Notes: generated by a model from the letters alone, not told the origin. A DNA stretch of 64,000 bases from Betaproteobacteria bacterium (GCA_005881595.1 VBBY01000002.1:5390-69389), one strand, 5' to 3'. Positions 29,720-48,433 are shown, counted from the first letter of the stretch. Made by a program: numbers and translations.

Positions 29720-29727
29720 ATGCGGGA

Positions 29728-32789: not shown

Positions 32790-32855
32790 ATCATGCCGCA
32801 AGAATTGATCGGCGTGGCCGCTAATTTCCTATCGCTTGTTGCGCTCGGCTAACCC

Positions 32856-34133: not shown

Positions 34134-34140
34134 GCGGGCA

Positions 34141-35298
34141 ATGTCAGCGTCATCCAACAACGTAAAGAAGCTGGTCTTTTTGCTGATTACGTTGCTATGT
34201 GTCGTTGTCGCCGTGCTTTACACTCGTTTCGCCGCCCGCACAGCCAATGTAACGGTGGGCAACCTCGCATCTGCGCCGACCGTCCAATCGCTGTCCGTTG
34301 TGCCGTTAGGTTCGCCATCGGCTAACCCTCCGGCTCATTCGCAGCGTGAGCCACTGCAACGGCCATTGGTTTCGCCGTTAGCTTCCAGATCGGATAACCC
34401 TGCCCCTCCATCGCATGAGCTAGGAGGGCAAAGCCAGGCAAAACCGCATTTGGTAGCGTTGAACTTGCGCGACTCGGCTGAGCTGGGCAAGGTGACGCTT
34501 TCAGCCCTGGACGCGGTCGACGGGCCCAGGACCACGATAAATCTGCGCTGTGAGAAAATCTATTTTGCTGCCGACAAAGGAATTTGTCTAAGCCGCGAGA
34601 TTCGCGGGTTCAGTGCACGGACTGTCGCCACCCTGGTCGACGCAAACTTTCAGCCTCTATCCAGCGTGCGCACTGATGGCATCCCGACGCGCGCCCGCAT
34701 CTCGCCAGACGGTCGCTATGCTGCGTTCACCGTCTTTGTCAGCGGCCACTCCTACGCCGATGCTCAGATGTCAACCGCCACTTTGCTGTTGGATGCAGCA
34801 GCAGGCGCCAGCCTTGGCAACCTAGAGGAATTCAAAGTGCTGCAAGATGGCAATGTCATTAAGTCGCTCGACTTCAACTACTGGGGCGTCACGTTTCAAC
34901 ACGACAGCAACTTCTTCTATGCGACCCTGCGGACGGGCGGGGTGAATTACTTGGTGCATGGCGATATCAAGGCCAAGACAGTTACAGTCACGTACAGAGG
35001 CGTCGAGTGTCCCTCGCTGTCGCCCGATGAGTCGCGCATCGCCTTCAAAAAGATGATCTCGCGCGGCAACTGGCGCTTGACTGTCCTTAATTTGACCACC
35101 TTTGAGGAAATTCCGTTAGCGGAAACAAGAAGCGTGGACGATCAAGCGGAATGGCTGGACAACGACCACGTTCTATACACCCGGCTCGAACCCGCTGCGC
35201 CACCGCCTGGGATGAGCATTATGGTTGTGTCTGCAGATGGCAGCGGTCAGGCGAAGCTGTTTGCCAAAGGCGCGGCGTCACCAGCCGTGGTTCGATGA
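34141..35298 (+). CDS. Membrane-anchored TolB-like (PD40 beta-propeller repeat) protein
   Basis: MSASSNNVKKLVFLLITLLCVVVAVLY is an N-terminal anchor. A Pro/Ser-rich linker follows, then PD40-type repeats (RISPDGRYAAF, SLSPDESRIAF). ATG 34141 lies 8 nt after the MFS stop. Confidence 0.7.
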   Translation: MSASSNNVKKLVFLLITLLCVVVAVLYTRFAARTANVTVGNLASAPTVQSLSVVPLGSPSANPPAHSQREPLQRPLVSPLASRSDNPAPPSHELGGQSQAKPHLVALNLRDSAELGKVTLSALDAVDGPRTTINLRCEKIYFAADKGICLSREIRGFSARTVATLVDANFQPLSSVRTDGIPTRARISPDGRYAAFTVFVSGHSYADAQMSTATLLLDAAAGASLGNLEEFKVLQDGNVIKSLDFNYWGVTFQHDSNFFYATLRTGGVNYLVHGDIKAKTVTVTYRGVECPSLSPDESRIAFKKMISRGNWRLTVLNLTTFEEIPLAETRSVDDQAEWLDNDHVLYTRLEPAAPPPGMSIMVVSADGSGQAKLFAKGAASPAVVR

Positions 35299-35425
35299 CG
35301 ACCGACGATTCAGCAATTCCTCTTGTAGGTTTATAAGCCGTTGGAATTAATGGCGATCGCCTGGTCATTAGAATGGGCGACGGTTCGCCGTCGAGGAAAG
35401 TTCGATCACAAAGAGGGGGTATTTC

Positions 35426-38400
35426 GTGAAACAAATAAAAGCTTCGACGATCCCTGTTCGCTTGATATCGTTGCTCGCGTGCGCGGCGCTCGTTGGGGGC
35501 GCAGCCTACGTGGGCGCCGATGACAGAGATGACGATCGAGATGCACGAGAGCATGAACATCACGGTCGAGATGCACACAAACTCGGTTTCGCGGGACCGG
35601 AGAACCAGAACGAGCTCTCGCGTCCGACCAATGACATCACCCTCGAGATGCACGAGGGCACGAACATGGCGGCGTCGCCATCGCCGGATGGCACAAAGAT
35701 GGTCTTGTCGCTCCAAGGCGGTTTATGGACCGTCCACGCGGGCGGCGGCACGGCGACGAAGATCACGCCGTGGGACGTCGAGGCGACGCAGCCCGTGTGG
35801 TCGCCCGACGGCCGGTGGATCGCATTCCAGAACTATTCGACGGATGCAAACTACGCGATCTGGGTCGTGAAGTCCGACGGGTCGCAACTGCACCCGCTGA
35901 CGAGCGGTCCTTTCGACGACCGCGAGCCGTCGTGGTACCCGGACTCGACCAAGGTCATCTTCTCGTCGGATCGAAGCAACGACAAGCAATACAAGATCTG
36001 GTCGGTGACGCTCGGCGGCGTGCTTAAGCAGCTCACGACGGGCACGGGCGCGGAGAGCTACCCCGTCGTCTCGCCCGACGGCACCAAGATCGCGTTCGTC
36101 AACAACGGCGACACGATCTTCACGCTGCCTGCCAACCTGAGCTCGGCGCCGACGCGGTTTGGCGGCGGCAACTATCCGCAGTGGACGCCGAACAGCGCGA
36201 ACCTCGTGTACCAGAACGGCGGCAATCTCATCGTGAACGGCAGCGCGGTCACGAGCGGCGAGGACCTATTCCCGTTCCCGGTGCAGTACATGGGTCAGAA
36301 CAAGTTCGTCTATACAGCGGACGGCAAGATTCGCACGCGCGACGCCACTGGCGGCAACCTGCAGGACATGGCATTCAGCGCGACGCAGGTCGTACGTCGG
36401 CCAAAGTTTACGCGATCCATGATCCGGTCTAGCTTGGGCGCGACGGAAACCCAGCGCGTGAAGGGCATCAACGGCGCCGTCATCTCGCCTGACGGTCAGC
36501 GGGTCGCGTTCATCGCGCTGAACGACCTATGGGTCATGAAGATCGGCTCGGCGCCGGAGCGTCTCACCAACGACATCGACCGCGACGTCGACCCGCGCTG
36601 GACCGCCGACGGCCAATTCATCTACTGGTCTAGCGACAAGAACAACGCCGGAAGCCTCGCCGTCGACAAGATCGACATCGTCACCAAGCGGCGCACGCGC
36701 GTTGCGGCGATCGAGAGCGTTTCGATGATCCAGCCGACGCTGTCGCCAGACGGGAACCGCTTTGCCTATACGACCGGTTCGGGTCTCACCGAGGTTATGG
36801 ACATCGCGACGCGCACACGCACGGCGCTCGTCCCGCAGGTTTCGCCGCAACCGCAGGTGAGCCGGCCGTTCTGGTCGCGCGACGGCAGCAAGCTCATGGT
36901 CGTCGACAACGAGCGCATCAATCCCCGGTTCCGCGAGGGTTACAACAAGCTGCGCGTCATCGACATCGCCACCAAGACCGCCACGTTCTACGCGGTCGGG
37001 CCCGCGCCGGCGGTGGTCTCCGACCGCACGGAAGGCGCAGCCGCGTGGTCGCCCGACGGCACGAAGGTCGCTTTCATCAGCGACTCGGTGCTCAAGGTCA
37101 TGCCCACCAACGCTGACGGCTCGCCCTCCGGTGCCGCCGTGCAGCTCACGAGCGAAGCGTCCGACATGCCGTCATGGCAGGCCGATTCCCAGACGCTCCT
37201 GTACATGGCGAGCGGCAAGCTGAAGAAGATAAAGGCGGACGGAACAGGGCAGGAGGACGTCCCGCTCCACCTGAGCTACAAGCCGGCCGCGCCGAAGGGC
37301 AGGACCGTCATCCACGCGGGCGCGCTCTGGAACGGTCTCGATCCGGTGCTGCAGCGCAACGTCGACATCGTCATCCAGGACAACAGGATCATCTCGATCG
37401 AGCCGCAGAAAAACCGTTCGCAGCCGCCGGGGACGACGATCATCGACGCCTCCAACCAGACGGTGCTGCCGGGCTACTGGGATCCGCACTTCCATCCGCT
37501 GAACGTCTACCAGGGCAGCCAGTTCAACTTGGTGTGGGCGGCGATGTTCGCGTACGGGATCACCTCGGTGCAGTCGGTGGCCGGCCCGATCTACGCGAGC
37601 ACGGAGATCCGCGAGGCGCTCGACGCCGGCAACATGGTCGGCCCGCGGCTCTTCACGTCATCGCCGCTCCTCGAAGGCAATCGGGTGTCGTATGACATGT
37701 CGCGCTCGGTGCGGAACGCCGAGGTGGCGGACCGCGAGGTCAGCCGCTATGCCGCAGTCGATATCGACTGGATCAAGACGTATGTGCGCAACCCGATCCC
37801 GGCGATGAGGCGGTTGGCGGCGGGCGCGCACAAGATGGGCATCCCGAGCGGTACGCACCTTTTGAGTCCAGGGTACTGGACCGGTATCCAGGGCCTCACG
37901 CACCTGCAGGCGACGCAGCGGGTGGGGTACGGCTGGGCGAAGTCGCCCGCAGGCGTTGCCTATCAGGACGTGAATGCGCTCGTCGGCCCCGGCGAGGTGC
38001 ACCTCATGGAGACGCTGGGGTCGATCCGGCTCGCCGCGCAAAGTCCCATCCTTCTGAGCGGTGACCGCTTCAACGTGCTGATGCCGATCCCGTACGTGGG
38101 CAACCTGCTGTCGCAGACCCCGCCCACGCCGGCGCAGCTCGCGACGCTCAAGGTGGCCACCGACGACGACGCGCGGGCGATCGAAGCAGGCGCGCTCTTC
38201 GCCATCGGCACGGACGTGCCGCTCAACCCGCCGGGCGTCCAGAACCACGCGAGCCTGATGGCGCTGGGCCTCAGCATGTCGAATCACCAGGCGCTCCAGG
38301 CCATGACGATCAACGCGGCCAAGATGAGCTTCAAAGACAGGGATCTGGGCAGCGTCGAGAAAGGCAAGCTGGCGGACCTGGTGATCGTCGACGGCAATCC

Positions 38401-38605
38401 GCTCGACGACCTCAAGTACGCCGCCGCGGTACGTTACGTCGTGAAGAACGGCGTCGCGTACTCGCTGGACTTGATCATGGCGCCGTTCAAGTCCTCGGCT
38501 CAGCTCGCCGCGCGTCGCAACGCTCTCGTCGCATTCGAGAAGGCCTGCAAGCAGGACGCGAGCAACTGCTACGTCGAGATGAGCCAGATTTGTGCTGGAA
38601 ACTGA
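35426..38605 (+). CDS. Secreted multidomain protein: about 11 PD40 repeats (two TolB-like propellers) fused to a C-terminal amidohydrolase-superfamily domain
   Basis: Signal peptide, then an Asp/His-rich stretch (DDRDDDRDAREHEHHGRDAH). Repeated SPDG motifs follow (SPDGTKM, SPDGRWIAF, SPDGTKIAF, SPDGQRVAF, SPDGNRFAY, SPDGTKVAF...). The C-terminal domain has LPGYWDPHFHP (HxH metal motif) and GSVEKGKLADLVIVDGNPL. GTG start has an AGAGGGGG Shine-Dalgarno. Confidence 0.82.
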   Translation: MKQIKASTIPVRLISLLACAALVGGAAYVGADDRDDDRDAREHEHHGRDAHKLGFAGPENQNELSRPTNDITLEMHEGTNMAASPSPDGTKMVLSLQGGLWTVHAGGGTATKITPWDVEATQPVWSPDGRWIAFQNYSTDANYAIWVVKSDGSQLHPLTSGPFDDREPSWYPDSTKVIFSSDRSNDKQYKIWSVTLGGVLKQLTTGTGAESYPVVSPDGTKIAFVNNGDTIFTLPANLSSAPTRFGGGNYPQWTPNSANLVYQNGGNLIVNGSAVTSGEDLFPFPVQYMGQNKFVYTADGKIRTRDATGGNLQDMAFSATQVVRRPKFTRSMIRSSLGATETQRVKGINGAVISPDGQRVAFIALNDLWVMKIGSAPERLTNDIDRDVDPRWTADGQFIYWSSDKNNAGSLAVDKIDIVTKRRTRVAAIESVSMIQPTLSPDGNRFAYTTGSGLTEVMDIATRTRTALVPQVSPQPQVSRPFWSRDGSKLMVVDNERINPRFREGYNKLRVIDIATKTATFYAVGPAPAVVSDRTEGAAAWSPDGTKVAFISDSVLKVMPTNADGSPSGAAVQLTSEASDMPSWQADSQTLLYMASGKLKKIKADGTGQEDVPLHLSYKPAAPKGRTVIHAGALWNGLDPVLQRNVDIVIQDNRIISIEPQKNRSQPPGTTIIDASNQTVLPGYWDPHFHPLNVYQGSQFNLVWAAMFAYGITSVQSVAGPIYASTEIREALDAGNMVGPRLFTSSPLLEGNRVSYDMSRSVRNAEVADREVSRYAAVDIDWIKTYVRNPIPAMRRLAAGAHKMGIPSGTHLLSPGYWTGIQGLTHLQATQRVGYGWAKSPAGVAYQDVNALVGPGEVHLMETLGSIRLAAQSPILLSGDRFNVLMPIPYVGNLLSQTPPTPAQLATLKVATDDDARAIEAGALFAIGTDVPLNPPGVQNHASLMALGLSMSNHQALQAMTINAAKMSFKDRDLGSVEKGKLADLVIVDGNPLDDLKYAAAVRYVVKNGVAYSLDLIMAPFKSSAQLAARRNALVAFEKACKQDASNCYVEMSQICAGN

Positions 38606-38634
38606 GGCGCGTTAACCGCGATCCGACGAAAAAG

Positions 38635-38670
38635 GCCCGCCGATCCAAGCTTTAGTCGGCGGGCTTTTCG
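38635..38670. terminator. Bidirectional rho-independent terminator between convergent genes
   Basis: gcccgccga (38635-43) pairs with tcggcgggc (38656-64). It is flanked by aaaa on the left and ttttcg on the right. Confidence 0.7.
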
Positions 38671-38716
38671 CTTGGGCCTCGCGCTCCGGCGTTACCTCCG
38701 GGCCGCAGAAGGGGTT

Positions 38717-39232
38717 TCATTTCTTCCATTTGATGGAGCAGCCGATCGACGCGATCTGCTCCTTCGGGCCGATGCCGGTGTTGGCGATCTGCACCATCGC
38801 CTCAAACAGCTCGCGGCGCGCGTTCGGCACCGGATCGCGGCGCGAGGCGTCGAGCCGGCCGCGGTACTGCAGCTCGAGCCCGGCATTGAAGCCGAAGAAA
38901 TCCGGCGTGCACGCCGCGCCATAGGCGCGCGCCACATCCTGCGTCTCGTCGAGAAGGTACTGAAACGGAAACCTTTTCTCGCGGGCGATGCGCTTCATGT
39001 TCTCGAAGGAGTCCTCCGGATACTCGGTGGGATCGTTCGACATCACGGCTACAGAGGCGACCCCTTGCGCCGAGAGCTCCCTGCAGTCGCGGATAATGCG
39101 GTCGATCACCGCCTTGACGTACGGACAATGGTTGCAGATGAACATCACCACCAGCCCTTTCGGGCCGCGCACGGCGGCGAGGTCGTGGCGCTTGCCGTCG
39201 ACGCCCGGCAGATCGAAGTCTGGCGCCTGCAT
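38717..39232 (-). CDS. Thioredoxin-fold protein (AhpC/TSA-like, CxxC)
   Basis: MQAPDFDLPGVDGKRHDL...VVMFICNHCPYV (CxxC). 171 aa. Confidence 0.85.
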   Translation of the reverse strand: MQAPDFDLPGVDGKRHDLAAVRGPKGLVVMFICNHCPYVKAVIDRIIRDCRELSAQGVASVAVMSNDPTEYPEDSFENMKRIAREKRFPFQYLLDETQDVARAYGAACTPDFFGFNAGLELQYRGRLDASRRDPVPNARRELFEAMVQIANTGIGPKEQIASIGCSIKWKK

Positions 39233-39275
39233 GCAAAGATCGTAACATGAAGGATACCGTCGCCCGCGCCCCGCG
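39215..39275. repeat. Direct repeat copy A (61 bp), containing the trx-like start codon and a 10-codon vestige of the rsmE 5' end
   Basis: Manual alignment to 43689..43749 gives 51/61 identical positions without gaps. It contains atgaaggataccgtcgcccgcgccccgcggtga, which encodes MKDTVARAPR-stop, compared with the rsmE N-terminus MKDTAARAPRFYV. Confidence 0.8.
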
Positions 39276-39285
39276 GTGATGATCC

Positions 39286-40350
39286 TCAGTCATCCGAATG
39301 ATCACGATAACCGCTCTTTTTCATCCAGCTCGGCACTGGCGGCGTCGGCACGCGCGCCGGCTTGGGAGCGACTCGCTGGACCGGAGTCACCGGAGTCGAC
39401 GCCGGAATCGAGGTAGGGACTTTGGAGCTCGCCGGATAGCTCGCCGGATTTTTGAGAACGCTATCGAGATTGCCGACCTTCATCGGATGCTGCTGCACCA
39501 TGGCCGCCACGGCAGCGGCGAGTTGATCGATTTCCCGCGATCCGATACGACGTAATTGTTGCCAAATCGCCGATCGATCCAACTGGTGGAAATCTTCGCG
39601 CACGAAGATCAGATTGTCGCCGGTATGAAAACGTTCCCATAGGGTGAGATCCCTCTCCAGCGCCGCCAGCGAGAGATAGATGACGAGAGCTGAAAACCGA
39701 TCGATCTCTTGGCCGTAGTCGCGCTCGCTACGTTCGGGATGTTGGTAGGCACGGTGGCCGAGCTCCGTGGCGTTGCGGCCCTTTAAGGCCGGTACCCACG
39801 TGCCGTCGTAGTCCACCAAATGGATCGATCCGCCGCGCACCAGGATATTACCGTGCTGTAAATCGCCGTGCGCCACCTGAGCGGCTTCGAGGTGGCGAAC
39901 TAGGGTGACCCATTTTGCCCGCAATGCCGCCAGTAATGCCGGAAAGCGTAAATGCTTCTCGATATGAGTGTGCAGAAGGTCGCCCTCCGCCCATTGCATC
40001 TTGACGATCGGGAACCAGTTGGAGCGAATTTGGATGCCCTGCTTGAGAAACTGAAAATTGACGTCATAGGGCAGGTGGACCTTGCGAAGATGTTTGGAGA
40101 TCGCCTCATAACGTTCGGCATGGTCGCTGATCGGGCGCAGGAAGCAGCGAATCGCCCAGGTCTTCTTGAATGATAAAAACCTGCCCGGTTCGCTGGCCTT
40201 GTAGACCACGGCGTTGCCGCCGGTGGCCGGCTTGGGCATACCGAACCGATCGAGCTCGAGGGTGACCGCTTTTAATCCCGGGTCAGCAAAGGCCCTTTGC
40301 GGGTGCTGAACCGCCTCATGGTATTCGGTCAGGTCTGGCCATGCCCCCAT
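39286..40350 (-). CDS. Ser/Thr protein-kinase-like protein with Pro-rich C-terminal tail (third gene of the vWA-PP2C-kinase triad)
   Basis: Gly-loop-like TGGNAVVYKA, catalytic loop HGDLQHGN, Mg-binding-loop-like LVDYDG and GHRAYQHPER. The beta3 position reads AIRCF (Arg). AAGGAG Shine-Dalgarno lies 9 nt upstream of the ATG, and the ATG is 2 nt after the PP2C stop. Confidence 0.75.
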   Translation of the reverse strand: MGAWPDLTEYHEAVQHPQRAFADPGLKAVTLELDRFGMPKPATGGNAVVYKASEPGRFLSFKKTWAIRCFLRPISDHAERYEAISKHLRKVHLPYDVNFQFLKQGIQIRSNWFPIVKMQWAEGDLLHTHIEKHLRFPALLAALRAKWVTLVRHLEAAQVAHGDLQHGNILVRGGSIHLVDYDGTWVPALKGRNATELGHRAYQHPERSERDYGQEIDRFSALVIYLSLAALERDLTLWERFHTGDNLIFVREDFHQLDRSAIWQQLRRIGSREIDQLAAAVAAMVQQHPMKVGNLDSVLKNPASYPASSKVPTSIPASTPVTPVQRVAPKPARVPTPPVPSWMKKSGYRDHSDD

Positions 40351-40352
40351 CG

Positions 40353-41138
40353 CTATCTCTCCTTCGCTTCAACCGGTGAACCGTGATGAATGACACGGAC
40401 GAGGGTAAAGTCGTCGTTGCGCAATCCATTTTTGCGGCCGTAGGCGACCATTGCGGCAAAGCTCTCTGGCGTACCGAGCTTCCGGTAAAGCCACTTCCAT
40501 AATGGCCGCCCCTCTTCATGCTGTCTAAGCAGCCAGGCGGCCACCGCATCGGTGGCGAGCAGAAGCATGTCTCCATCGCGCAGGCTGCCCTTGCTGATTT
40601 GTATCCGTTCGTTCAGTGATTCGCCGTCCGACCTGGAGCCGATGAGATAAGGGCTCATCGTGAATTGCGAAGATTTCTGTAAGGGAAACGCTTCCACCAC
40701 CCGCATCCCTTTACCGACGTCATCGACCTGCATAAGGCAACAGTCACCCACGGCCAGCGCCGTCCAACGGTTCTTGTGAGCGTCAATCTGAACACCGAGA
40801 AAAGCCGCAAAGGCGCCCTGCTCGGCCTTTTCGCTGGCGAACCAGGGGAGAGGTCGGCCCGCCAATCTTCGCCGCCAGAGGCGGCGCGCCGGCTTCAACC
40901 GCGCAAAAAACTCTGCCCCGGCGACCTCACTTCGCATATAGCTTTCGGCCAACAGCACTGCCCATAACTTGGCAAAACTGCTTTCGGTGGCGCCGTCAGC
41001 CACCGCCACGCGGATGCCGACCGGGGTGCGAGTTTGCCGATGCGCCCAGGCGTCCTCGTACTCCTCAAGACTGTTGCCCGACTTCGGGCAGCAGAAGACC
41101 TTTATGTCGCACTCGTTGGCCGCCGTGGCGTGCTTCAC
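40353..41138 (-). CDS. PP2C-family Ser/Thr protein phosphatase
   Basis: EEYEDAWA, VAVADGATES, AVGDCCLM, GDMLLLATDAV and NDDFTLV correspond to the metal-binding Asp motifs of PP2C. GTG start at 41138. Confidence 0.72.
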   Translation of the reverse strand: MKHATAANECDIKVFCCPKSGNSLEEYEDAWAHRQTRTPVGIRVAVADGATESSFAKLWAVLLAESYMRSEVAGAEFFARLKPARRLWRRRLAGRPLPWFASEKAEQGAFAAFLGVQIDAHKNRWTALAVGDCCLMQVDDVGKGMRVVEAFPLQKSSQFTMSPYLIGSRSDGESLNERIQISKGSLRDGDMLLLATDAVAAWLLRQHEEGRPLWKWLYRKLGTPESFAAMVAYGRKNGLRNDDFTLVRVIHHGSPVEAKER

Positions 41139-41165
41139 CGCAGGAGGTGCCCACTGCAGTGGTAC

Positions 41166-42038
41166 TCAGCGCAGACGCACATTAGCCGGCCGCGTGCCGA
41201 TATCGAGAAAATGGATTACGTGCAACGGTTGCGCGTTAAAGATGAATCCGCGCGAGTCTTCCGCCGCCGGCATACCCAGCTCTGTCGCGCGTGCAACCAT
41301 GAACGGCGTGAGCGTCGATGAGGCCTCAAAGAGCTGTTTGGCATGTTGATCCGGGAGCTTGTTGGCGTTGCCCGGTAATTCGATCGATGGTCCGGCCGTC
41401 GACGAAAGATGGATGTTGAAGAGCAACACCGAGCCGTCGTCGCCACTGACCGCCGTTAACTTGCGCGCCTCGGCAATGAGGTCTCCATCCGTTGCCTCGC
41501 CGTCGGTGATGTTGATGACGATCGGCGGAAATCCCGTCGGATGCTCCTCACACCAGGTCTCGACAATCCGGGTTGCCTCCTTGAGCGCGGCGCACATCGG
41601 AGTGCCCCCTTTCCAATATGGGTCGAACCAGACTGGAAATTTCACGGTTTGGTCCACCACTCCGCCGGCGCCATCATCCGATTTCTTTGTTCTCTCTTCG
41701 ATGCGCAACGGCTTATTGGCCAATTCACTGATCGGTACCAAAGAGCGCCCGCTCAGTTCACCGCCGAGCGCTGGTTTACAGCTCTCTTCGCTGTAGCCCA
41801 GCACACCGACATGAAAGTAGTCGTAAATGGAGTCCGATTTGGCGCAACGGATGCTCAGATTGTGAATGAGCTTGTTGAGTATCGTCGCCAGCTCCTCGGC
41901 CTTCTTTCTGCCAGCCTCTCCGCCGCCAAAAGGGTCTTCCATCGACTCTGACTGGTCGACCAAAAACAAGAAACAACCCGGGTTCTTACGACTGATTTCG
42001 GCCTGGTATGCCATGGTTTCCCTCGCCTTTTGCATCAT
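41166..42038 (-). CDS. von Willebrand factor A (vWA) domain protein, TerY-like
   Basis: MIDAS motif LFLVDQSESM (DxSxS), GGTPMCAAL (Thr) and INITDGEATDG (Asp). Start set at ATG 42038, 6 nt after an AAGGAG Shine-Dalgarno. The ORF is open up to GTG 42122. Confidence 0.78.
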   Translation of the reverse strand: MMQKARETMAYQAEISRKNPGCFLFLVDQSESMEDPFGGGEAGRKKAEELATILNKLIHNLSIRCAKSDSIYDYFHVGVLGYSEESCKPALGGELSGRSLVPISELANKPLRIEERTKKSDDGAGGVVDQTVKFPVWFDPYWKGGTPMCAALKEATRIVETWCEEHPTGFPPIVINITDGEATDGDLIAEARKLTAVSGDDGSVLLFNIHLSSTAGPSIELPGNANKLPDQHAKQLFEASSTLTPFMVARATELGMPAAEDSRGFIFNAQPLHVIHFLDIGTRPANVRLR

Positions 42039-42278
42039 GACTCGCTCCTTCGGGGCGCCCTCGCGCGTGAACTTTCGCAATCTTCTCAGAGCGACCTTGA
42101 TATTGCGTGTGCGCGAGTTCACAGAATCGTCTAGATTCCGGTACTCCCGCTGGTCCCAGACCTTGACCGCGGCTCGGTTGCGCGAGCTTTCCTGCCCGAT
42201 GCGGGTGCCCTCGGGGTTGTAGCCATAGGCGCCGGTCGGCTCGCAGCCGCAGCGACTCCGTCAGATCGCCTTCACCGT

Positions 42279-43706
42279 TCACGCCCTTACCAGCCAGCGA
42301 ACGACGCTGTAGTGCGCCGCGGCGAGCTGTTGCGGAAGCTCCAGGTGCCCGTAATGCGTCATCGGCAGGTCCCAGTTGATCAACCGTACCTGCGCCTCCG
42401 GATTTTTCGCCCGGTATTCGTTCGCGATGAACACCTCGATGCTTCTCATCGGCTCCTCGGCATTCCAGTGGTTGCGGTCGAGCTTCGCCGTCGTCCAGAC
42501 CATGCGCTGGAAACCGTCCATGCGGGTGAAATTGGTGGCGTACAGATCCTTCTCGACGTCCTCGACGGCGATGCGCCAGGGATTGCCGGTGCGCTTGAGC
42601 AGGGATTCGATCTCGTTCTCCACCCACGCCTTTTCTCCGAGGTCGGCCCCGTGCTCGAGGTTCTGCAGCTGCTGCTTGAAGTTGGGACGCCGGCGCGCCT
42701 CCGCCGCGAGCCAGCGTTGGGCGATCTGAAGGTGCGTCATGCCCGCTTCGTAGAGCGGATTGAGAAAGCCGCTGTAGCCGCGGGCGTAGCTCGGCGGGTC
42801 GCGTCGTTCCAGAACGTGGAGCGGCGTCTTTCCCGCCTGGCGGGAAGCGCCGGCACGGGCCACGATTTCCTTGCCCCTGACCTTGCGCAACAGCTCGAGC
42901 CGCGCCGGTCCCCCGCTGCCCCAGCCCAGGTAACGACCCTTGAGCCGGGGGCGCAGGTCTGGATCCTCGTAGGCGAGCATCGAAAGCTCGCCGGAGGTCG
43001 AATGCCCGATCAGCAGGATGTCGCCCGAGGTGTGCCTGGTCACCAGCGCCTTCAGCCCCTGCAGGATCAGGCTGTTGGTGTAGATCGCGTTGCGCATCTC
43101 GTACTCGTCCATGGACAGATCGCGATCGAGCAAATATGCGGGCTGGCGCCTGGCGTCCAGGACCGGCAGGTCCCAGCCGCCATATTTGAAGTTGCCGGGA
43201 ATGGTCACGATCATGACGTTGAGCTTCTGCGCCAGGTATTGCGCCCAGCCGGGACGGTTCTTCAGGTCGACGTAGAATTCGTAGAAATTCGCCGCGCCGC
43301 CGTTGATGATGATGAACCACGGATAATTTCTCGCCTCCGGATTGAGGCTCGCGAGGCGCAGGGCCGTGATGTCCCAATCGAGGTTGTAGCGGCGAAAACG
43401 CTCGACGATCCAGTCTGCCTTGTAGCCGAGCTGCTGCGCGGGGAGCCTGGCGACATCGCGCGGATCGAAGGCGCCGCCATCAGCCTTCCCTGCCAGGGCG
43501 GTGATCGATTTTCCGCCGTCCGGCAGATCGAAGCCCGCGCCGAGGGCGCGCAAGTCGGACTCCGCCAGCGAAACGTACGCCGCCTTCCCGTCGTCGAGCA
43601 GAGTCCAGATCTTCTGTTCGAGACCTTGGGATTGCGCCAGGACGAATCCGGCCGGAAGGATTGCCGCGAAAAGAGCGAGCACCGCGCCGAAGCCTTTCGC
43701 CTTCAT
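42279..43706 (-). CDS. Secreted alpha/beta-hydrolase-fold protein, function unknown
   Basis: MKAKGFGAVLALFAAILPAGFVLAQS signal peptide and a GHSTSG nucleophile elbow (GxSxG). Its first 6 codons lie inside repeat copy B. Confidence 0.65.
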   Translation of the reverse strand: MKAKGFGAVLALFAAILPAGFVLAQSQGLEQKIWTLLDDGKAAYVSLAESDLRALGAGFDLPDGGKSITALAGKADGGAFDPRDVARLPAQQLGYKADWIVERFRRYNLDWDITALRLASLNPEARNYPWFIIINGGAANFYEFYVDLKNRPGWAQYLAQKLNVMIVTIPGNFKYGGWDLPVLDARRQPAYLLDRDLSMDEYEMRNAIYTNSLILQGLKALVTRHTSGDILLIGHSTSGELSMLAYEDPDLRPRLKGRYLGWGSGGPARLELLRKVRGKEIVARAGASRQAGKTPLHVLERRDPPSYARGYSGFLNPLYEAGMTHLQIAQRWLAAEARRRPNFKQQLQNLEHGADLGEKAWVENEIESLLKRTGNPWRIAVEDVEKDLYATNFTRMDGFQRMVWTTAKLDRNHWNAEEPMRSIEVFIANEYRAKNPEAQVRLINWDLPMTHYGHLELPQQLAAAHYSVVRWLVRA

Positions 43707-43749
43707 GCAAAAATCCTACCATGAAGGATACGGCTGCCCGCGCCCCGCG
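43689..43749. repeat. Direct repeat copy B (61 bp), containing the hydrolase start codon and the functional rsmE start
   Basis: See copy A: 51/61 identity, same orientation, 4474 bp apart. Confidence 0.8.
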
Positions 43750-44458
43750 CTTCTACGTGGCCGCTGCGCTGCGCGCCGGCGGCGCTTGCGTGCTGCCCGA
43801 GGACGCGGCGCACCATGCAGTGCGCGTGCTGCGCGTGCGCGCCGGTGACGCGATCACGCTCTTCAACGGTCGCGGCGGAGAGTTTGCGGCTCGCGTCGCG
43901 GCCATCGAGCGTCTGCGCATCAGCGTCGAGGTGCTGGAGCATCACGCCATCGAGCGCGAGTCGCCGTTGCATCTGGTGCTCGTGCAGGGCGTATCCTCCG
44001 GCGAGCGCATGGACTTTACGGTGCGCAAGGCGGTCGAGCTGGGCGTGGCCGAGATCAGGCCGGTGCTGGCGGCGGCGTCCGTGGCGCGGCCCAGGGGCGA
44101 GCGCGCAGCGGCGCGCCACGTTCACTGGCAGAAAGTCGCGATCGCCGCCTGCGAGCAATGCGGGCGCAACCGGGTGCCTGCAGTGCAGCCGATGGTGAAT
44201 GCGGCCGAGTACCGCGAAGACGGCGCAGGGACAAGAATCCTGCTGTCGCCGCGCGCCGAGCTCGCGCTCTCGAAAGTGGGAATCGAGCGGGCCGTGACGA
44301 TCGCCGCGGGGCCGGAGGCGGGATTCAATGCACGGGAGGAAGCCGCCTTTCTGGAAAGCGGCTTCGTGCCGGCCAGCCTCGGTCCGCGCATCCTGCGGAC
44401 CGAGACCGCGGCGCTCGCCGCGCTCGCCGCGCTCGGCGCTTTGCGGGGAGACTTTTAG
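43721..44458 (+). CDS. rsmE: 16S rRNA (uracil1498-N3)-methyltransferase
   Basis: MKDTAARAPRFYV...EDAAHHAVRVLRVRAGDAITLFNGRGGEFAARV and a C-terminal SPOUT region (GPEAGF..E, LGPRILRTETA). Confidence 0.88.
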   Translation: MKDTAARAPRFYVAAALRAGGACVLPEDAAHHAVRVLRVRAGDAITLFNGRGGEFAARVAAIERLRISVEVLEHHAIERESPLHLVLVQGVSSGERMDFTVRKAVELGVAEIRPVLAAASVARPRGERAAARHVHWQKVAIAACEQCGRNRVPAVQPMVNAAEYREDGAGTRILLSPRAELALSKVGIERAVTIAAGPEAGFNAREEAAFLESGFVPASLGPRILRTETAALAALAALGALRGDF

Positions 44459-44492
44459 TTAGAATTTAAAAAAATCACAACGCGGGGAACCC

Positions 44493-45812
44493 GTGGCCGC
44501 ACCGCAACACCCGGAAGCCTTCGTGCGCTGGCTGCGCCAGGTCACGCCCTACGTGCACGCGTTCCGCGGGCGCACCTTCGTCGTCGGCTTCGGCGGCGAG
44601 ATGTTCGCCGAGCGCGCGCGCTTTGCGAGCTTCATTCACGACGTGAATCTGCTCGCCGCCCTCGGCATCCGGCTGGTGCTGGTGCCCGGCGCCCGGCCGC
44701 AGATCGAGGCCGAGCTGAAGGCGAAGGGCTTGCGCTCGCGCTACGCCCAGGGCCTGAGGATCACCGACGACGCGGCACTGATGGCGGTGAAGCACGCCGC
44801 CGGCGTGCTGCGCGTGGAGCTCGAGGCGCAGCTCTCCCAGGGGCTGCCGGGCTCGCCGATGGCCGGGGCGCAGATTCGGGTGGCCTCGGGCAACTTCATC
44901 ACTGCACGCCCGATCGGCGTGCTGAAGGGGACGGATTTCCAGTACACGGGAACGGTGCGCAAGGTCGACGCCGAGGAGATCGCGCGGCGGCTCGACGCCG
45001 GCGAGGTGGTGCTGGTGCCGCACCTCGGCTACTCGCCGACCGGCGAGGTCTTCAATCTGGCGTGGGAGGACGTCGCGGAAAACGTCGCCGTGTCGCTCAA
45101 GGCCGACAAGCTGCTCTTGTACGCGGACCGGCTGCCCACCAACCGAAAGGGCGAGGTGCTGGGCGAGCTGACGGCGCGCGAAGCCGAAACGCTCGCGAAG
45201 AAAGGCCCGCTCACGCCGCAGAGCGCTCGCGCGATCGAGCACGCCGTGCGTGCCGTCGGCGGCGGCGTCGCGCGCGCGCATGTAATCACGCGCAGCGTGC
45301 GGGGCGCGCTGCTGCTCGAGCTGTTTACCCGCACCGGCGTCGGCACGATGATCACGGCGGATGCGGTGGAGAAGCTGCGCCCGGCGCGCATCGAGGACGT
45401 GCGCGGCATGCTCGAGCTGATCGAGCCGCTCGAGGCCGACGGCACGCTGGTGAAGCGCAGCCGCGAGCTGCTGGAGGCCGAGATCGGCAACTTCCTGGTG
45501 GTGGATCACGACGGGACGATCGTCGGCTGTGCGGCGCTGTATCCGGTCCCCGAGGACAAGAGCGCGGAATTCGCCTGCCTGGCCGTCGCCGGGGAGTACC
45601 GCGACGCGGGCTATGGCGAGCGGCTGCTCAAGGCTTGCGAGGAGCGTGCCAAGGCGCTGCGCCTGCGGCGGCTTTTCGCGCTCACCACTCGCGCCGCCCA
45701 CTGGTTCCTCGAGCAGGGGTTCCGCGCCGCCGCCGTGTCGGCCCTGCCGCAGCGCCGCCAGGCGCTCTACAACTGGCGCCGCGGCTCGAAGGTGTTCCTC
45801 AAGAGAATATAA
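44493..45812 (+). CDS. argA: Amino-acid N-acetyltransferase (N-acetylglutamate synthase)
   Basis: An amino-acid-kinase-like domain ([27 protein letters not shown]) is followed by a C-terminal GNAT domain ([22 protein letters not shown]). Confidence 0.92.
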
Positions 45813-45820
45813 TCCACGCC

Positions 45821-46093
45821 ATGGCGCGAATGGTGAAGTGCGTGAAGCTCGGCCGCGAGGCCGAAGGGCTCGCTTTCCCGCCCTACCCCGGAGCGCTCGG
45901 CCAGCGGATCTGGGAAAACGTGTCGAAGGAAGCCTGGCAGCAATGGCTGAAGCACCAGACCATGCTGGTGAACGAGAACCGGCTCAACCTCGCCGATCCC
46001 AAGGCCCGCAAGTACCTGATGGACCAGACCGAGCGCCACTTCTTCGGCGAAGGCGCCGAGGTGGCGTCGGGCTACGTCCCGCCTAAAGAGTAA
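45821..46093 (+). CDS. yggX: Oxidative damage protection protein / Fe(2+)-trafficking protein
   Basis: [56 protein letters not shown] is a near-canonical YggX sequence. Confidence 0.92.
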
Positions 46094-46742
46094 CCGTCCG
46101 GACCCCGGAATCCGCAGCGAGCAGCAGCACGTCGGCCGGCCGCCGCGCGAAGATGCCGTTCGCCACCAGGCCGGCGATATTGTTGAGCTCGGCCTCGAGT
46201 CTGGGCGGGTCGAGCAGCGTCAGGCCGTGGCAATCGATGATCAGGTTGCCGTTGTCGGTCTTGAAGTTCTCGCGCAGCACCGGCTGCGCGCCCCGCTTCA
46301 GCATCTCGCGGCCGACGTGGCTGCGCGCCATCGGGATCACCTCGAGCGGCAGCGGGAACCTGCCGAGCACCGGCACCAGCTTGGAGGCGTCGCAGATGCA
46401 GACAAACTTCCGCGCCACCGCGGCGACGATCTTCTCGCGCGTCAGCGCACCGCCGCCGCCCTTGATCATGTGCAGGTGCTCGGTCACCTCGTCGGCGCCG
46501 TCGACGTAGACCGGCAGCTCGTCGACGCTGTTCAGGTCGAAGACGCGGATGCCGTGCTTGCGCAGGCGTTCGGCGCTCGCGCCGGAGGCGGCCACCGCGC
46601 CTTCGATGCGGCCCTTGATCGAGGCGAGCGCGTCGATGAACAGATTCACGGTGGAGCCCGAGCCGACGCCGACCACGCGGTCTTCCACGACGTGCTTCAA
46701 CGCCGCGTCCGCAACCAGCTTCTTTAGTTGATCCTGATTCAC
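46083..46742 (-). CDS. rpiA: Ribose-5-phosphate isomerase A
   Basis: [32 protein letters not shown] and KGGGGAL(T)REK. GTG 46742 overlaps the lpdA stop (GTGA). The 3' end overlaps convergent yggX by 11 nt. Confidence 0.9.
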
Positions 46743-48433
46743 TTCTTGCGCTGCGGCGGCAGGTCGGTGCACACGCCCTCGAACAGCTCCGCCGCCATGC
46801 CGACCGATTCGCTGAGCGTCGGGTGCGGGTGGATGGTCTTGCCGAGGTCGGTCGCGTCGGACCCCATCTCGACCGCGTGCGCAATCTCGCTGATCAGGTC
46901 GCCGGCGCCGGTGCCGACGATGCCGCCGCCGATGATGCGGTGCGTCTCGCCGTCGAAGATCAGCTTGGTGAAGCCTTCATCGCGCGCGTTGGCAATCGCC
47001 CGCCCCGAGGCCGCCCACGGGAATTTCGCGACGCCGATCTGCATGCCGTTCTTTTTCGCCTCGTCCTCGGTGACGCCGGCCCAGGCGATCTCGGGGTCCG
47101 TGAAGGCCACCGAGGGAATGACGCGCGCGTCGAAGTGCGCTTTCTGGCCGGCGGCCGCCTCGGCTGCGACATGGCCCTCGTGCACCGCCTTGTGCGCGAG
47201 CATCGGGTTGCGGGCGATATCGCCGATGGCATAGATATGCGGCACGTTGGTGCGCATCTGGGAGTCGGTCTCGATGAAGCCGCGCTCGGTCACCGCGATG
47301 CCCGCCTTGTCGGCGCCGATCTTCCCGCCGTTCGGCACCCGGCCGACCGAGACGAGCACCAGGTCGTAGGTCTTCGAGTCCTTGCCGTCGAAAAAGATCC
47401 TGATGCCGTCTTTGGCCGCTTCCGCTTTGGTCGTCCTGGTCCTCAGCATCACCTCGTCGAAGCGGCCGGCATTGAATCTCTGCCACACCGCGACCAGATC
47501 GCGGTCGGCGCCGAGCATCAGCCCATCCATCATCTCGACCACGTCGAGCCGCGCGCCGAGCGTCGAGTAGACGGTGCCCATCTCCAGGCCGATGATGCCG
47601 CCGCCGATCACCAGCATCTTTTTCGGCACGCCCTTGAGCTCCAGCGCCGCCGTGGAATCGACGATGCGCGGGTCGTCGGGAAGGAAGGGAAGCTTCGCCG
47701 CCTGCGAGCCGGCGGCGATGATAGCGGACGCGAAGCGCACGGTTTTACTGCCGTCCTTGCCTTCCACCTGTAGACGATTCTTATCCAGAAAAGTCCCGAC
47801 CCCCTGGACCACCGTGACCTTGCGCATCTTCGCCATCGAGGCGAGCCCGCCGGTGAGCTTTCCGACCACCTTGTCCTTGAACGCGCGCAGCTTGGCGAGG
47901 TCGAGCTTCGGCTGGCCAAACGTGACGCCGTGGTCGGCGAGACCGCGCGCGGCGTCCATGACGGCCGCGGTATGCAGGAGCGCCTTCGAGGGAATGCAGC
48001 CGACGTTGAGGCACACGCCGCCCAGCGTCGGATAGCGCTCGACCAGCACCGTCTTCAGCCCGAGGTCGGCGGCACGAAATGCCGCCGAATAGCCGCCCGG
48101 CCCGGCGCCCAGGACGACGATGTCGCATTCGAGATCCGCTGAGGCGGAAGGCGCAGGCGGCGCCGGCTGGGGCGCTGCAGGCCTTTTTTGGGGTTGCGCC
48201 GATTCCAGGACCAGGATCGGCGAGCCCTGCGAGACCTTGTCGCCGAGCTTGATTCTCAGCTCCTTGACTACTCCCGCGCCCGGCGACGGAATCTCCATCG
48301 TCGCCTTGTCGGACTCGAGCGTGATGAGGGACTGCTCCTTCGCCACTGCGTCGCCGAGCTTGACCAGGACCTCGATGACCTCGACGTCCTTGAAGTCCCC
48401 GATGTCGGGGACCTTCACTTCGATTCCGGGCAT
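46739..48433 (-). CDS. lpdA: Dihydrolipoyl dehydrogenase (E3) with N-terminal lipoyl domain
   Basis: An N-terminal lipoyl domain ([11 protein letters not shown]) is followed by GAGPGGY, the redox disulfide [10 protein letters not shown] and the C-terminal HPHPTLSE. Confidence 0.95.

What the first reader, a model, noticed from the sequence alone, without database searches (positions are those of the whole stretch)
39215..43749. 61-bp imperfect direct repeat brackets a 4.4-kb four-gene insert and preserves a 10-codon fossil of rsmE
39215..39275 and 43689..43749 align without gaps at 51/61 positions (my manual count). Each copy contains a minus-strand start codon, 14 nt of spacer and a plus-strand ATGAAGGATAC... 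start. Copy B drives the real rsmE (MKDTAARAPRFYV...). Copy A encodes only MKDTVARAPR and then a stop. The first six codons of the trx-like gene (MQAPDF, copy A) and of the alpha/beta hydrolase (MKAKGF, copy B) are likewise homologous. The ancestral locus was therefore probably trx-like facing rsmE. The kinase/PP2C/vWA/hydrolase block arrived with duplication of the junction, and the hydrolase now uses a duplicated start region. No integrase or transposase is present, so the insertion mechanism is unclear. It could be att-like recombination with later loss of the integrase, or illegitimate or homology-facilitated recombination.
Basis: seen in the sequence. Interest (0 to 1): 0.7.

Follow-up and report, generated by a model that had tools for sequence, protein, structure and literature searches.

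The report
Integrase-free defence-gene insert beside rsmE
A soil Burkholderiales strain has gained a 4.4-kb block (a TerY-P anti-phage gene trio plus a secreted hydrolase) exactly between the start codons of two housekeeping genes, apparently by ordinary recombination and not by a mobile-element enzyme, leaving a duplicated 52-base start region and a 10-codon gene fossil as a scar.

Summary
The repeat is real: 52/62 ungapped, score 32 against at most 16 in shuffles. Its true extent is 52 nt (39224-39275 and 43698-43749, 45/52 identical). It covers peroxiredoxin (prx) codons 1-3, a 14-nt spacer and rsmE codons 1-10.

Fifteen related loci have the empty site, with prx 14 nt from rsmE. One of them (L074) is 97-100% identical in the flanks.

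The insert is composite. One part is a GC-poor TerY-PP2C-kinase (TerY-P) defence cassette, 86-88% nt identical to copies in other phyla. The other is a signal-peptide alpha/beta-hydrolase-like gene, 97% nt identical to a copy in a different context. That gene is fused in frame after prx codon 3, which gives a unique MKA|KGF start.

The two copies are not one sequence that diverged. Four of the seven differences are alleles found at empty sites (copy A matches L074, copy B matches L075). Divergence from L074 continues for 284 nt and then falls to 0 in 635 nt.

Best reading (about 0.45): homology-facilitated illegitimate recombination, with a homologous crossover in rsmE and an illegitimate joint at rsmE codon 10. 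There is no integrase, no terminal inverted repeats and no recurrent att site. This is a well-resolved example of a known process, of moderate interest.

The parts
It now lies 53 nt downstream of the kinase stop on the same strand.
   Evidence: Pfam PF00578 4e-19 and PF08534 2e-15. 98.1% nt identical to L074 prx. Four unique non-synonymous changes: K2Q, L9P, N25K, P91Q.
39224..39275 (.). Repeat copy A (true 52-nt extent): prx codons 3-1, a 14-nt spacer (39233-39246) and rsmE codons 1-10. The rsmE part carries the L074-type allele. The spacer carries three unique changes (39229, 39238, 39242), one of which destroys the AGGA Shine-Dalgarno.
   Evidence: Homology to the empty sites L074, L075 and L076 ends exactly at 39275.
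39247..39279 (+). rsmE fossil: ATG plus 9 codons (MKDTVARAPR), then TGA TGA.
   Evidence: The 29 nt at 39247-39275 are 29/29 identical to the L074 rsmE start.
39276..39285 (.). Illegitimate junction A: 7-10 nt (GTGATGATCC) between the rsmE fossil and the end of the TerY-P cassette. Origin unknown (donor flank or filler).
   Evidence: Cassette homology to L069, L070 and L071 stops at 39285, 39285 and 39283, which is 1-3 nt past the kinase stop codon.
39286..40350 (-). Ser/Thr kinase of the TerY-P triad, 354 aa, without the OB half of the PADLOC profile.
   Evidence: PADLOC STK_OB 2e-74, profile positions 2-289 of 562. Pfam Pkinase 1.7e-6 (28.1 bits, below the 31.7-bit gathering cut-off).
40353..41138 (-). 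PP2C phosphatase of the TerY-P triad.
   Evidence: PADLOC PP2C 1.9e-30. Pfam PP2C_2.
41166..42038 (-). TerY (vWA) of the TerY-P triad. The start is probably the ATG at 42038 (RBS GAAGGAG) or the MAYQAEIS start 8 codons later.
   Evidence: PADLOC TerY 1e-98. Start context. Homologues about 90% aa identical in Gemmatimonadales and Nitrospirales MAGs.
42039..42261 (-). Leader and linker. 42039-42110 is shared with the TerY upstream region of L070.
42262..43706 (-). Hydrolase segment. The gene 42279-43706 encodes a 475-aa protein with a signal-peptide-like N-terminus and an alpha/beta-hydrolase-like fold (invariant GHSTSG). 42262-43697 is native hydrolase DNA. 43698-43706 is prx codons 1-3, fused in frame.
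   Evidence: 97.2% nt identity to L067 over 1446 nt, confined to the gene plus 17 nt 3' of it. More than 655 homologues, none starting MKAK. AF2 model pLDDT 63 with Foldseek hits to alpha/beta hydrolases.
43698..43749 (.). Repeat copy B: prx codons 3-1 (now the hydrolase start), the conserved 14-nt spacer with intact AGGA, and rsmE codons 1-10. It carries the L075-type allele.
   Evidence: An independent assembly (L078) covers this junction at 99.5% identity.
43721..44458 (+). Functional rsmE (16S rRNA U1498 N3-methyltransferase).
   Evidence: NCBIfam NF008692 1.8e-85. Pfam PF04452 and PF20260.
43698..43981 (.). Divergent (donor-type) tract next to the insert. It has 23 differences from L074 in 284 nt, many of them shared with L075. 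The homologous crossover lies between 43982 and 44031, and from there the window is identical to L074 for 635 nt.
   Evidence: P about 2e-12 for the clustering.

Best explanation
The region is a recent, strain-specific, composite insertion into the 14-nt divergent start region between a peroxiredoxin gene (prx) and rsmE. The cargo is a horizontally mobile TerY-PP2C-kinase (TerY-P) anti-phage cassette plus a signal-peptide alpha/beta-hydrolase-like gene.

Most likely it entered by homology-facilitated illegitimate recombination (HFIR). The incoming DNA came from a diverged relative. It carried, in order, the kinase end, the cassette, the hydrolase already fused to prx codons 1-3, the spacer, and about 260-310 nt of that relative's rsmE. 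Its rsmE end recombined homologously with the recipient rsmE, with the crossover between 43982 and 44031. Its non-homologous end was joined illegitimately to the recipient at rsmE codon 10 (39275|39276).

That joint lies 52 nt inside the stretch that the donor also carried. As a result, prx codons 1-3, the spacer and rsmE codons 1-10 are now present twice. The recipient allele is copy A and the rsmE fossil. The donor allele is copy B and the working starts of the hydrolase and rsmE.

Consequences (inferred). The hydrolase inherits the prx start codon and Shine-Dalgarno, together with the rsmE-side upstream sequence where the native prx promoter would be expected to lie. prx itself now sits at the tail of a co-directional array of hydrolase, TerY, PP2C, kinase and prx, with a decayed spacer.

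Shown here: the empty site, the insert boundaries, the composite origin, the chimeric hydrolase start, the allelic identity of the two copies, the recombination breakpoint, and the absence of recombinase genes and of terminal repeats.

Inferred: that the divergent tract arrived together with the insert, the structure of the donor, and the expression consequences.
For: Empty site. prx and rsmE start codons are 14 nt apart in 15 related loci. L074 flanks are 97-100% nt identical, with homology ending exactly at 39275 and resuming at 43698.

Foreign cargo. PADLOC gives TerY 1e-98, PP2C 2e-30 and STK 2e-74. Cassette DNA is 86-88% identical to copies in unrelated contexts, including a Gemmatimonadales MAG, and that homology ends 1-3 nt after the kinase stop. 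GC is 55-61%, against 62-71% in the flanks.

Hydrolase. It is 97% nt identical to a gene inside a Liv-type ABC transporter operon in L067, and the homology is confined to the gene. No homologue starts MKAK.

Two alleles. The copy A rsmE part is 29/29 identical to L074 and the copy B rsmE part is 29/29 identical to L075. The same holds for TAAC versus TACC before the ATG.

Breakpoint. There are 23 differences from L074 in 43698-43981 and 0 in 43982-44616, P about 2e-12.

No mobile-element signature. The insert has no terminal inverted repeats, and no part of it recurs elsewhere in the window. No integrase or transposase domain was found in the insert or in the neighbouring genes scanned.

Assembly support. 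Junction B is confirmed in an independent assembly, L078.

Definition of HFIR. It is one homologous end plus one illegitimate end (PMC3240628). Natural analogues that leave orphan fragments are described in PMC5361080.
Against: The donor lineage with the hydrolase fused to the prx start was not found. The one metagenome hit to that junction is the same strain.

HFIR usually deletes recipient DNA and shows 3-10 bp of microhomology (PMC3240628). Here there is a 52-nt duplication, and microhomology at 39275|39276 cannot be assessed without the donor sequence.

The illegitimate joint falls within 10 nt of the kinase stop. That is a coincidence under random joining, unless selection trimmed the flank.

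The recipient side shows an unexplained cluster of 7 differences from L074 in 39158-39242, against 6 in the other 442 nt (Fisher P = 0.002). This includes 3 unique changes in a spacer that is invariant in the nine more distant empty-site loci (L004-L016) and differs by at most three bases in the other relatives. HFIR alone does not predict this.

The same final allele pattern could arise if the divergent tract was imported after the insertion.
Confidence: 0.45

Rival explanations
1. In-situ insertion with a true 52-nt target duplication. A linear fragment is captured at a staggered break, or a replication template switch (MMBIR-like) copies the hydrolase and the cassette into the site. Later, ordinary homologous recombination with an empty-site allele from the population overwrites copy B and the first roughly 260 nt of rsmE, stopping at the border of homology (43698).
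For: The insert boundaries lie almost exactly at ORF ends on both sides, as expected if one fragment was inserted and only functional products survived. The hydrolase is 97% identical to a gene from a related betaproteobacterial MAG and so could be a copy from the same or a sister genome. Three unique changes in the copy A spacer look like changes made after the event. The left end of the divergent tract coincides with the end of homology, as a border-limited conversion tract would.
Against: It needs two independent events at the same place. A conversion tract whose left crossover has only 20 nt or less of homology is inefficient, and an incoming empty-site allele would be more likely to delete the insert. 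A 52-nt staggered duplication is far longer than known target-site duplications. The rsmE fossil shows 0/33 changes from L074 although it has been non-functional since the event.
Confidence: 0.25
2. Campbell-type or 'homology handle' integration. A circle, or a fragment from a strain that already carries the structure, brings the cargo plus one 52-nt copy of the prx-start/spacer/rsmE-start segment. It integrates by RecA-dependent crossover within that segment, which produces reciprocal chimeric copies. The block could then excise and re-integrate into any empty site without an integrase.
For: Single crossovers of circles that carry a homologous segment give direct duplications of that segment flanking the insert (PMC3240628). 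Relative to L074, copy A is divergent on its left (4/19) and identical on its right (0/33), Fisher P = 0.014. Copy B is the reverse (1/19 and 4/33). The flanking divergence is about 8% on both sides of the site (39158-39242 and 43717-43981). This is the pattern a crossover near 39242-39245 would give.
Against: 52 nt at about 87% identity is a very short and mismatched substrate. The numbers behind the chimera pattern are tiny. The model still needs an unexplained first event to build the circle, with illegitimate joints at rsmE nt 29 and prx codon 3. No second genome with this insert at this site was found among about 75 loci.
Confidence: 0.15
3. Site-specific (att-like) integration of a small island by a tyrosine or serine recombinase whose gene was later lost. 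In this reading the 52-nt repeat is attL/attR.
For: Direct repeats of tens of nt that reconstitute the ends of target genes are typical of integrative islands. In two other contigs (L069, L079) the TerY-P cassette lies about 170 nt from a tRNA-3'-end-like fragment.
Against: There is no integrase in the insert or in the syntenic housekeeping flanks. The insert is two units of different origin with no space for a lost gene. The site is not recurrent: 15 empty sites, none occupied, and other TerY-P copies sit at unrelated loci. The repeat occurs only twice in the window. The copies differ by standing alleles, not by a conserved core with diverged arms.
Confidence: 0.04
4. Assembly artefact: a chimeric contig joined at a repeat, or strain mixing.
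For: The window apparently comes from a metagenome assembly. Junction A (39275|39276) has no independent support in the data available here.
Against: The longest identical runs between the copies are only 13-14 nt, too short to mis-join k-mer graphs. An independent contig (L078, WNGC01005659.1) reproduces hydrolase, copy B, rsmE and 7.6 kb downstream at 99.5-99.9%. All five genes are intact, and the hydrolase fusion is in frame.
Confidence: 0.03

Closest known systems
Homology-facilitated illegitimate recombination (HFIR). Described experimentally in Streptococcus pneumoniae, Acinetobacter baylyi, Pseudomonas stutzeri and E. coli (PMC3240628, which cites de Vries & Wackernagel 2002, Prudhomme et al. 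2002 and Meier & Wackernagel 2003).
   Same: Foreign DNA is integrated with one homologous crossover in a conserved anchor (here rsmE) and one illegitimate joint. No recombinase gene is involved. The inserted DNA is a few kb long. A donor-type tract runs from the insert into the anchor and ends abruptly.
   Different: Laboratory events usually delete recipient DNA. Here the illegitimate joint lies inside the anchor-homologous stretch, so 52 nt are duplicated. Microhomology could not be checked because the donor is unknown. The route of DNA entry (transformation or otherwise) is unknown for this uncultured lineage.
Orphan-fragment arrays at T6SS effector-immunity, Rhs and CDI loci (PMC5361080).
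   Same: Incoming modules that share a conserved anchor displace the resident copy, leaving truncated 'orphan' fragments beside the new module. The authors proposed an HFIR-like mechanism with no integrase.
   Different: Those loci are recurrent hotspots with repeated displacement at the 3' ends of toxin genes. Here a single event at the 5' ends of two housekeeping genes leaves a 10-codon 5' fossil. No recurrence was seen in 15 relatives.
TerY-P anti-phage system: the TerY vWA, PP2C phosphatase and Ser/Thr kinase triad. It is represented by PADLOC models. The primary sources, Anantharaman et al. 2012 and Gao et al. 2020, are cited from memory and were not read here.
   Same: All three components are present in one co-directional cluster with strong PADLOC matches. 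The cassette is found as an isolated three-gene unit in many unrelated genomic contexts and phyla.
   Different: The kinase matches only the N-terminal half of the STK_OB profile, so there is no OB domain. Defence activity is untested. Here the triad is coupled to an upstream hydrolase gene and a downstream peroxiredoxin gene.
Campbell-type single-crossover integration of a circle carrying a homologous segment (PMC3240628).
   Same: It produces a direct duplication of the homologous segment on both sides of the inserted DNA.
   Different: The duplications reported there were 109-950 bp. Here the duplication is 52 nt and about 87% identical. No circular form is known.

Membership tests
TerY-P defence system | TerY-type vWA protein | tested here: met
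   PADLOC TerY 9.9e-99, full profile 1-277.
TerY-P defence system | PP2C-family phosphatase adjacent to TerY | tested here: met
   PADLOC PP2C 1.9e-30. Pfam PP2C_2 above its cut-off.
TerY-P defence system | Ser/Thr kinase (STK_OB model) in the same cluster | tested here: inconclusive
   PADLOC STK_OB 2e-74, but only profile positions 2-289 of 562 are matched, so the OB half is absent. Pfam Pkinase scores 28.1 bits, below the 31.7 cut-off. Kinases of the closest cassettes are equally short, at 341-366 aa.
TerY-P defence system | Protects against phage | not testable with these tools
   Requires a phage challenge of a strain expressing the cassette.
Homology-facilitated illegitimate recombination product | Donor-type tract continuous with the insert that ends in a homologous crossover in a shared gene | tested here: met
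   23 differences from L074 in 43698-43981 and 0 in 43982-44616, P about 2e-12.
Homology-facilitated illegitimate recombination product | The other end joined where donor and recipient share no homology | tested here: met
   Empty-site homology ends at 39275. Cassette homology ends at 39283-39285. 7-10 nt of unknown origin lie between them.
Homology-facilitated illegitimate recombination product | 3-10 bp microhomology at the illegitimate joint | not testable with these tools
   The donor sequence beyond the joint is unknown. Only the same strain was recovered.
Homology-facilitated illegitimate recombination product | Accompanying deletion of recipient DNA (usual, not obligatory) | tested here: not met
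   No recipient base is missing relative to L074. Instead 52 nt are duplicated.
Site-specific integrative island (attL/attR) | Integrase or recombinase gene in or next to the element | tested here: not met
   The four insert genes are a kinase, PP2C, TerY and a hydrolase. The neighbouring genes scanned are housekeeping or transport genes, and 29057-32802 and 44459-49174 are syntenic with L076.
Site-specific integrative island (attL/attR) | The same site is used recurrently in other genomes | tested here: not met
   15 empty sites and 0 occupied sites among about 75 related loci. TerY-P copies elsewhere sit at unrelated sites.
Transposon insertion with target-site duplication | Transposase, terminal inverted repeats and a short target-site duplication (about 2-14 bp, from general knowledge) | tested here: not met
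   No transposase domain was found. The best ungapped match between the inverted termini is 21 positions in a 60-nt comparison, about what unrelated sequence gives. The duplication is 52 nt.
Campbell-type single crossover | The two copies are reciprocal chimeras of circle and chromosome alleles | tested here: inconclusive
   Copy A has 4/19 versus 0/33 differences from L074 (P = 0.014). Copy B has 1/19 versus 4/33. This is suggestive but rests on very few sites.

The most novel reading that the evidence does not exclude
The 52-nt prx-start/spacer/rsmE-start segment may act as a portable 'homology handle'. The cargo would loop out by RecA-dependent recombination between the two copies and re-enter any empty prx|rsmE site in related genomes. 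That would make this an integrase-free mobile cassette which also brings its own ready-made promoter, Shine-Dalgarno and start codon. If general, divergent start regions of conserved genes would be a previously unrecognised class of landing pad for defence genes.
Probability: 0.08. Interest if true: 0.7.

Novelty: new member of a known kind. Interest (0 to 1): 0.4.

Why it matters
Defence systems such as TerY-P are often found as isolated cassettes with no mobile-element genes nearby, and how they move is seldom documented base by base. Here the empty site, both junctions, the composite cargo and a recombination breakpoint are all resolved in natural soil populations. The result points to recombination-driven acquisition (HFIR-like) without any recombinase.

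The case also shows two side effects of landing in a 14-nt divergent start region. First, an incoming gene is fused in frame to a resident start codon and ribosome-binding site, and so is placed under resident signals. Second, one copy of the spacer, which is invariant or nearly so across the relatives, decays while the other copy is preserved. That is a natural experiment on which gene the spacer serves.

This is a clean illustrative case. It is not a new kind of system.

Tried and rejected
- Searched for the donor junction (hydrolase start fused to prx start plus spacer) in metagenome contigs with a degenerate 32-nt pattern. The only hit was the same strain, L078.
- Looked up the window's TerY by exact sequence. 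It is not on record.
- Checked whether hydrolase and TerY-P travel together elsewhere. They do not: hydrolase homologues sit in other contexts (L067, L068), and TerY-P cassettes lack the hydrolase (L069-L073, L079).
- Searched all fetched loci and the window for the 151-nt linker 42111-42261. No match.
- Tested for terminal inverted repeats and for further copies of the repeat. None found.
- Promoter and terminator consensus scans gave nothing above chance near either junction.
- Rfam found nothing in the window.
- ARAGORN found no tRNA beside the TerY-P copies that carry a tRNA-like fragment.
- Pfam, NCBIfam, PADLOC and PDB sequence searches gave no family for the hydrolase. Only the fold search did.
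- The ORF 44475-45701(-), which I first used as a synteny marker, is a shadow of argA on the opposite strand.
- The original HFIR papers (PMC122324, PMC122325) are not held, so they are cited only through PMC3240628 and PMC5361080.

Full report
**1. Observation**

The repeat finder extends this to 39214-39275 / 43688-43749, 52/62. It is by far the best direct repeat in 36-47 kb. Its ungapped score is 32 at offset 4474, against 14.3 +/- 0.9 (maximum 16) in 30 composition-preserving shuffles. A 28-nt core pattern with up to 3 mismatches occurs only at these two places in the 64-kb window, where none is expected by chance. Copy A reads MKDTVARAPR followed by two stops. Copy B heads a full rsmE gene (NCBIfam NF008692, 1.8e-85).

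**2. Genes**

| Coordinates (strand) | Gene | Evidence |
|---|---|---|
| 39286-40350 (-) | Ser/Thr kinase | PADLOC STK_OB 2e-74, N-terminal half of the profile only |
| 40353-41138 (-) | PP2C phosphatase | PADLOC PP2C 2e-30 |
| 41166-42038 (-) | TerY (vWA) | PADLOC TerY 1e-98 |
| 42279-43706 (-) | 475-aa hydrolase-like protein | see below |
| 43721-44458 (+) | rsmE | |
| 44493-45812 (+) | argA-like N-acetylglutamate synthase | |

The kinase, PP2C and TerY genes together form the TerY-P anti-phage triad.

The 475-aa protein has a signal-peptide-like N-terminus, judged by eye from its sequence. No sequence family matched it. It has more than 655 close homologues and an invariant GHSTSG motif. 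A modest AlphaFold model (pLDDT 63) hits only alpha/beta hydrolases in the PDB.

The long ORF at 44475-45701 (-) is a shadow of argA on the opposite strand.

**3. The empty site**

A scan of one genome per species with rsmE returned 66 loci, mostly from uncultured soil Burkholderiales. None has the kinase, PP2C, TerY or hydrolase genes near rsmE.

In L004-8, L011, L013, L014, L016 and L027, prx lies directly opposite rsmE with a 14-nt spacer. The closest relatives found through the protein database also have prx, 14 nt, then rsmE. These are L074 (rsmE 96% aa), L075 (91%), L080 (83%) and L076/L077 (80%).

blastn shows that homology of L074, L075 and L076 to the window ends exactly at 39275 and resumes exactly at 43698. 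The insert is therefore derived and recent. The true repeat is 52 nt (39224-39275 / 43698-43749), comprising prx codons 3-1, the spacer and rsmE codons 1-10, and is 45/52 identical.

**4. The insert is composite**

- **TerY-P cassette.** Its DNA (39283/39285 to 42039-42110) is 86-88% identical to cassettes in entirely different contexts, including a Gemmatimonadales MAG. In every comparison the homology stops 1-3 nt after the kinase stop codon. Its GC content is 55-61%, against 62-71% in the flanks.
- **Hydrolase segment.** The segment 42262-43707 is 97.2% nt identical to a gene inside a Liv-type ABC transporter operon of a betaproteobacterial MAG (L067). The homology is confined to the gene plus 17 nt 3' of it.
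- **Chimeric start.** Native hydrolases start MKKGF, MKKSF or MRKNL, and none starts MKAK. The window has ATG AAG GCG | AAA GGC TTC. The first three codons are those of the relatives' prx (MKA), fused in frame to hydrolase codon 3.

**5. The two copies are two alleles**

The copy A rsmE part (ATGAAGGATACCGTCGCCCGCGCCCCGCG, preceded by TAAC) is 29/29 identical to the L074 empty site. The copy B rsmE part (…ACGGCTGCC…, preceded by TACC) is 29/29 identical to L075 and matches L080 at the same four variable positions. So four of the seven differences between the copies are standing polymorphisms.

The other three differences (39229, 39238, 39242) are unique to copy A. They fall in the spacer and prx codon 2. 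The spacer is invariant (GCAAAAATCCTAGC) in the nine more distant empty-site loci (L004-L016) and differs by one to three bases in the closer relatives and L027. One of the three changes turns the AGGA Shine-Dalgarno of the minus-strand gene into ACGA.

To the right of the insert, the window differs from L074 at 23 positions in 43698-43981. Many of these are shared with L075. It then differs at none in 43982-44616, P about 2e-12. A recombination breakpoint therefore lies between 43982 and 44031. The divergent tract is contiguous with the insert.

**6. Mechanism**

The following are absent:

- an integrase or transposase in the insert or among the neighbouring genes annotated here or syntenic with L076;
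- terminal inverted repeats;
- any other copy of the repeat;
- any sign that the site is used recurrently (15 empty, none occupied).

Other TerY-P copies sit at unrelated loci. This argues against att-like integration and against transposition.

The pattern is: recipient allele, then illegitimate joint, then foreign DNA, then donor allele, then homologous crossover, then recipient allele. This is what homology-facilitated illegitimate recombination (HFIR) produces (definition in PMC3240628; natural analogues with orphan fragments in PMC5361080). Under this model the 52-nt 'repeat' is not a target-site duplication. It is the overlap created because the illegitimate joint in the recipient (rsmE codon 10) lies inside the stretch that the donor fragment also carried.

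I give this model about 0.45.

**7. What does not fit, and the rivals**

Four points count against HFIR:

- The donor was not found. The junction pattern recovered only the same strain, L078.
- HFIR usually deletes recipient DNA instead of duplicating it.
- Microhomology at the joint cannot be assessed.
- The recipient side has an unexplained cluster of 7 differences from L074 in 39158-39242, against 6 in the other 442 nt (P = 0.002). The 33-nt fossil has none.

The fourth point, together with the reverse pattern in copy B, is what a crossover inside the 52-nt segment would give. That would be Campbell-type integration of a circle, or spread of a fragment that already carried the repeat. Such events are known to duplicate the homologous segment. 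I give this 0.15, because the site counts are very small and a first illegitimate event is still required.

A third possibility is an in-situ 52-nt duplication with capture of a fragment, followed by border-limited allelic conversion of copy B and the rsmE 5' end. I give this 0.25.

Assembly artefact is unlikely. The identical runs between the copies are at most 13-14 nt. An independent contig reproduces hydrolase, copy B, rsmE and 7.6 kb downstream at 99.5-99.9% identity. Junction A, however, has no independent support.

**8. Consequences (inferred)**

With only 14 nt between the start codons, each gene's promoter would be expected to lie within or beyond the other gene's 5' coding region.

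- On the copy B side, the hydrolase keeps the prx start codon, the AGGA and the rsmE-side upstream sequence, so it is probably expressed from the former prx signals.
- rsmE keeps the spacer and 9 nt of prx, but its further upstream sequence is now hydrolase coding DNA.
- prx now follows the kinase by 53 nt on the same strand, with no terminator-like site between them. It has lost its Shine-Dalgarno. It also carries four unique non-synonymous changes (K2Q, L9P, N25K, P91Q) at positions conserved in L074-L076. This is consistent with altered or relaxed selection.

**9. Verdict**

The case is a well-resolved natural example of integrase-free, recombination-driven acquisition of a defence cassette, with start-codon capture. 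It is a new member of a known kind. It is of moderate interest to people who study how defence islands are assembled, and it is not a new type of element.

Noticed in passing
window 32803-38715: A second variable region lies immediately left of prx. This 5.9 kb (MFS transporter, PD40 beta-propeller protein, 1059-aa PD40/amidohydrolase protein; GC 54-60% in 32.5-35.5 kb) is absent from L075, where only 17 nt separate the GST-like gene from prx. In L076 the same position holds a GD_AH dehydratase plus DUF4126. L074 has yet another, unmatched left flank. So prx is bracketed by strain-variable DNA on both sides.
   Followed up: partly
window 44458-44553 vs L078 7577|7578: The otherwise 99.9% identical contig L078 lacks 96 nt that cover the rsmE stop codon, the intergenic region and the first 20 or so codons of argA. 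This is either a real deletion variant or an assembly error. L074 has the window's version.
   Followed up: partly
window 43017-43182: Eight of the nine window/L078 mismatches in 42598-44457 cluster in 166 nt of the hydrolase gene. Three of them match the L067 allele. This looks like a small gene-conversion patch between hydrolase alleles or paralogues.
   Followed up: partly
L069 ~6640-6680 and L079 ~1-45: About 170 nt upstream of TerY these contigs carry a tRNA-3'-end-like fragment (…CGGGATTTGAACCCGT…). ARAGORN finds no complete tRNA there. It may be an att remnant of a tRNA-targeting island that carries the TerY-P cassette in those genomes.
   Followed up: partly
L004-L016 junctions; L018, L021, L023 around the rsmE start: The 14-nt spacer GCAAAAATCCTAGC, within the quasi-palindrome CATGC…GCATG, is invariant in relatives whose rsmE is only 67-75% identical. 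L018 and L023 keep a prx-start-like CTTCATGCAGAATCC before rsmE although no prx follows. In L021 the same position has lost the CAT. The start region appears to outlive the gene, perhaps because rsmE expression depends on it.
   Followed up: partly
window 43724-43744 and relatives: A 7-codon N-terminal extension of rsmE (MKDTAARA-PRF…) is present in the window, L074-L077, L080, L027 and L017-L024. It is absent (M-PRF…) in the L003-L016 group. This is a 21-nt indel or a shifted start.
   Followed up: no
window 44475-45701 (-): This 408-aa ORF with no family hit is a shadow ORF on the strand opposite the real argA-like gene, 44493-45812 (+), which has AA_kinase and GNAT domains. Its apparent conservation in tblastn reflects the gene on the other strand.
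   Followed up: yes
window 48207-48420, 49514-49721, 49805-50019: Three direct copies of about 208 nt, 82-87% identical, appeared in the blastn of L078 against the window. From their position they are probably repeated lipoyl-domain coding segments of a 2-oxoacid dehydrogenase component, but the ORFs were not checked.
   Followed up: no
TerY homologues P0150, P0151, P0158, P0211: TerY proteins 89-92% identical to the window's occur in Gemmatimonadales and Nitrospirales MAGs. This indicates recent transfer of this TerY-P cassette between phyla in soil.
   Followed up: partly
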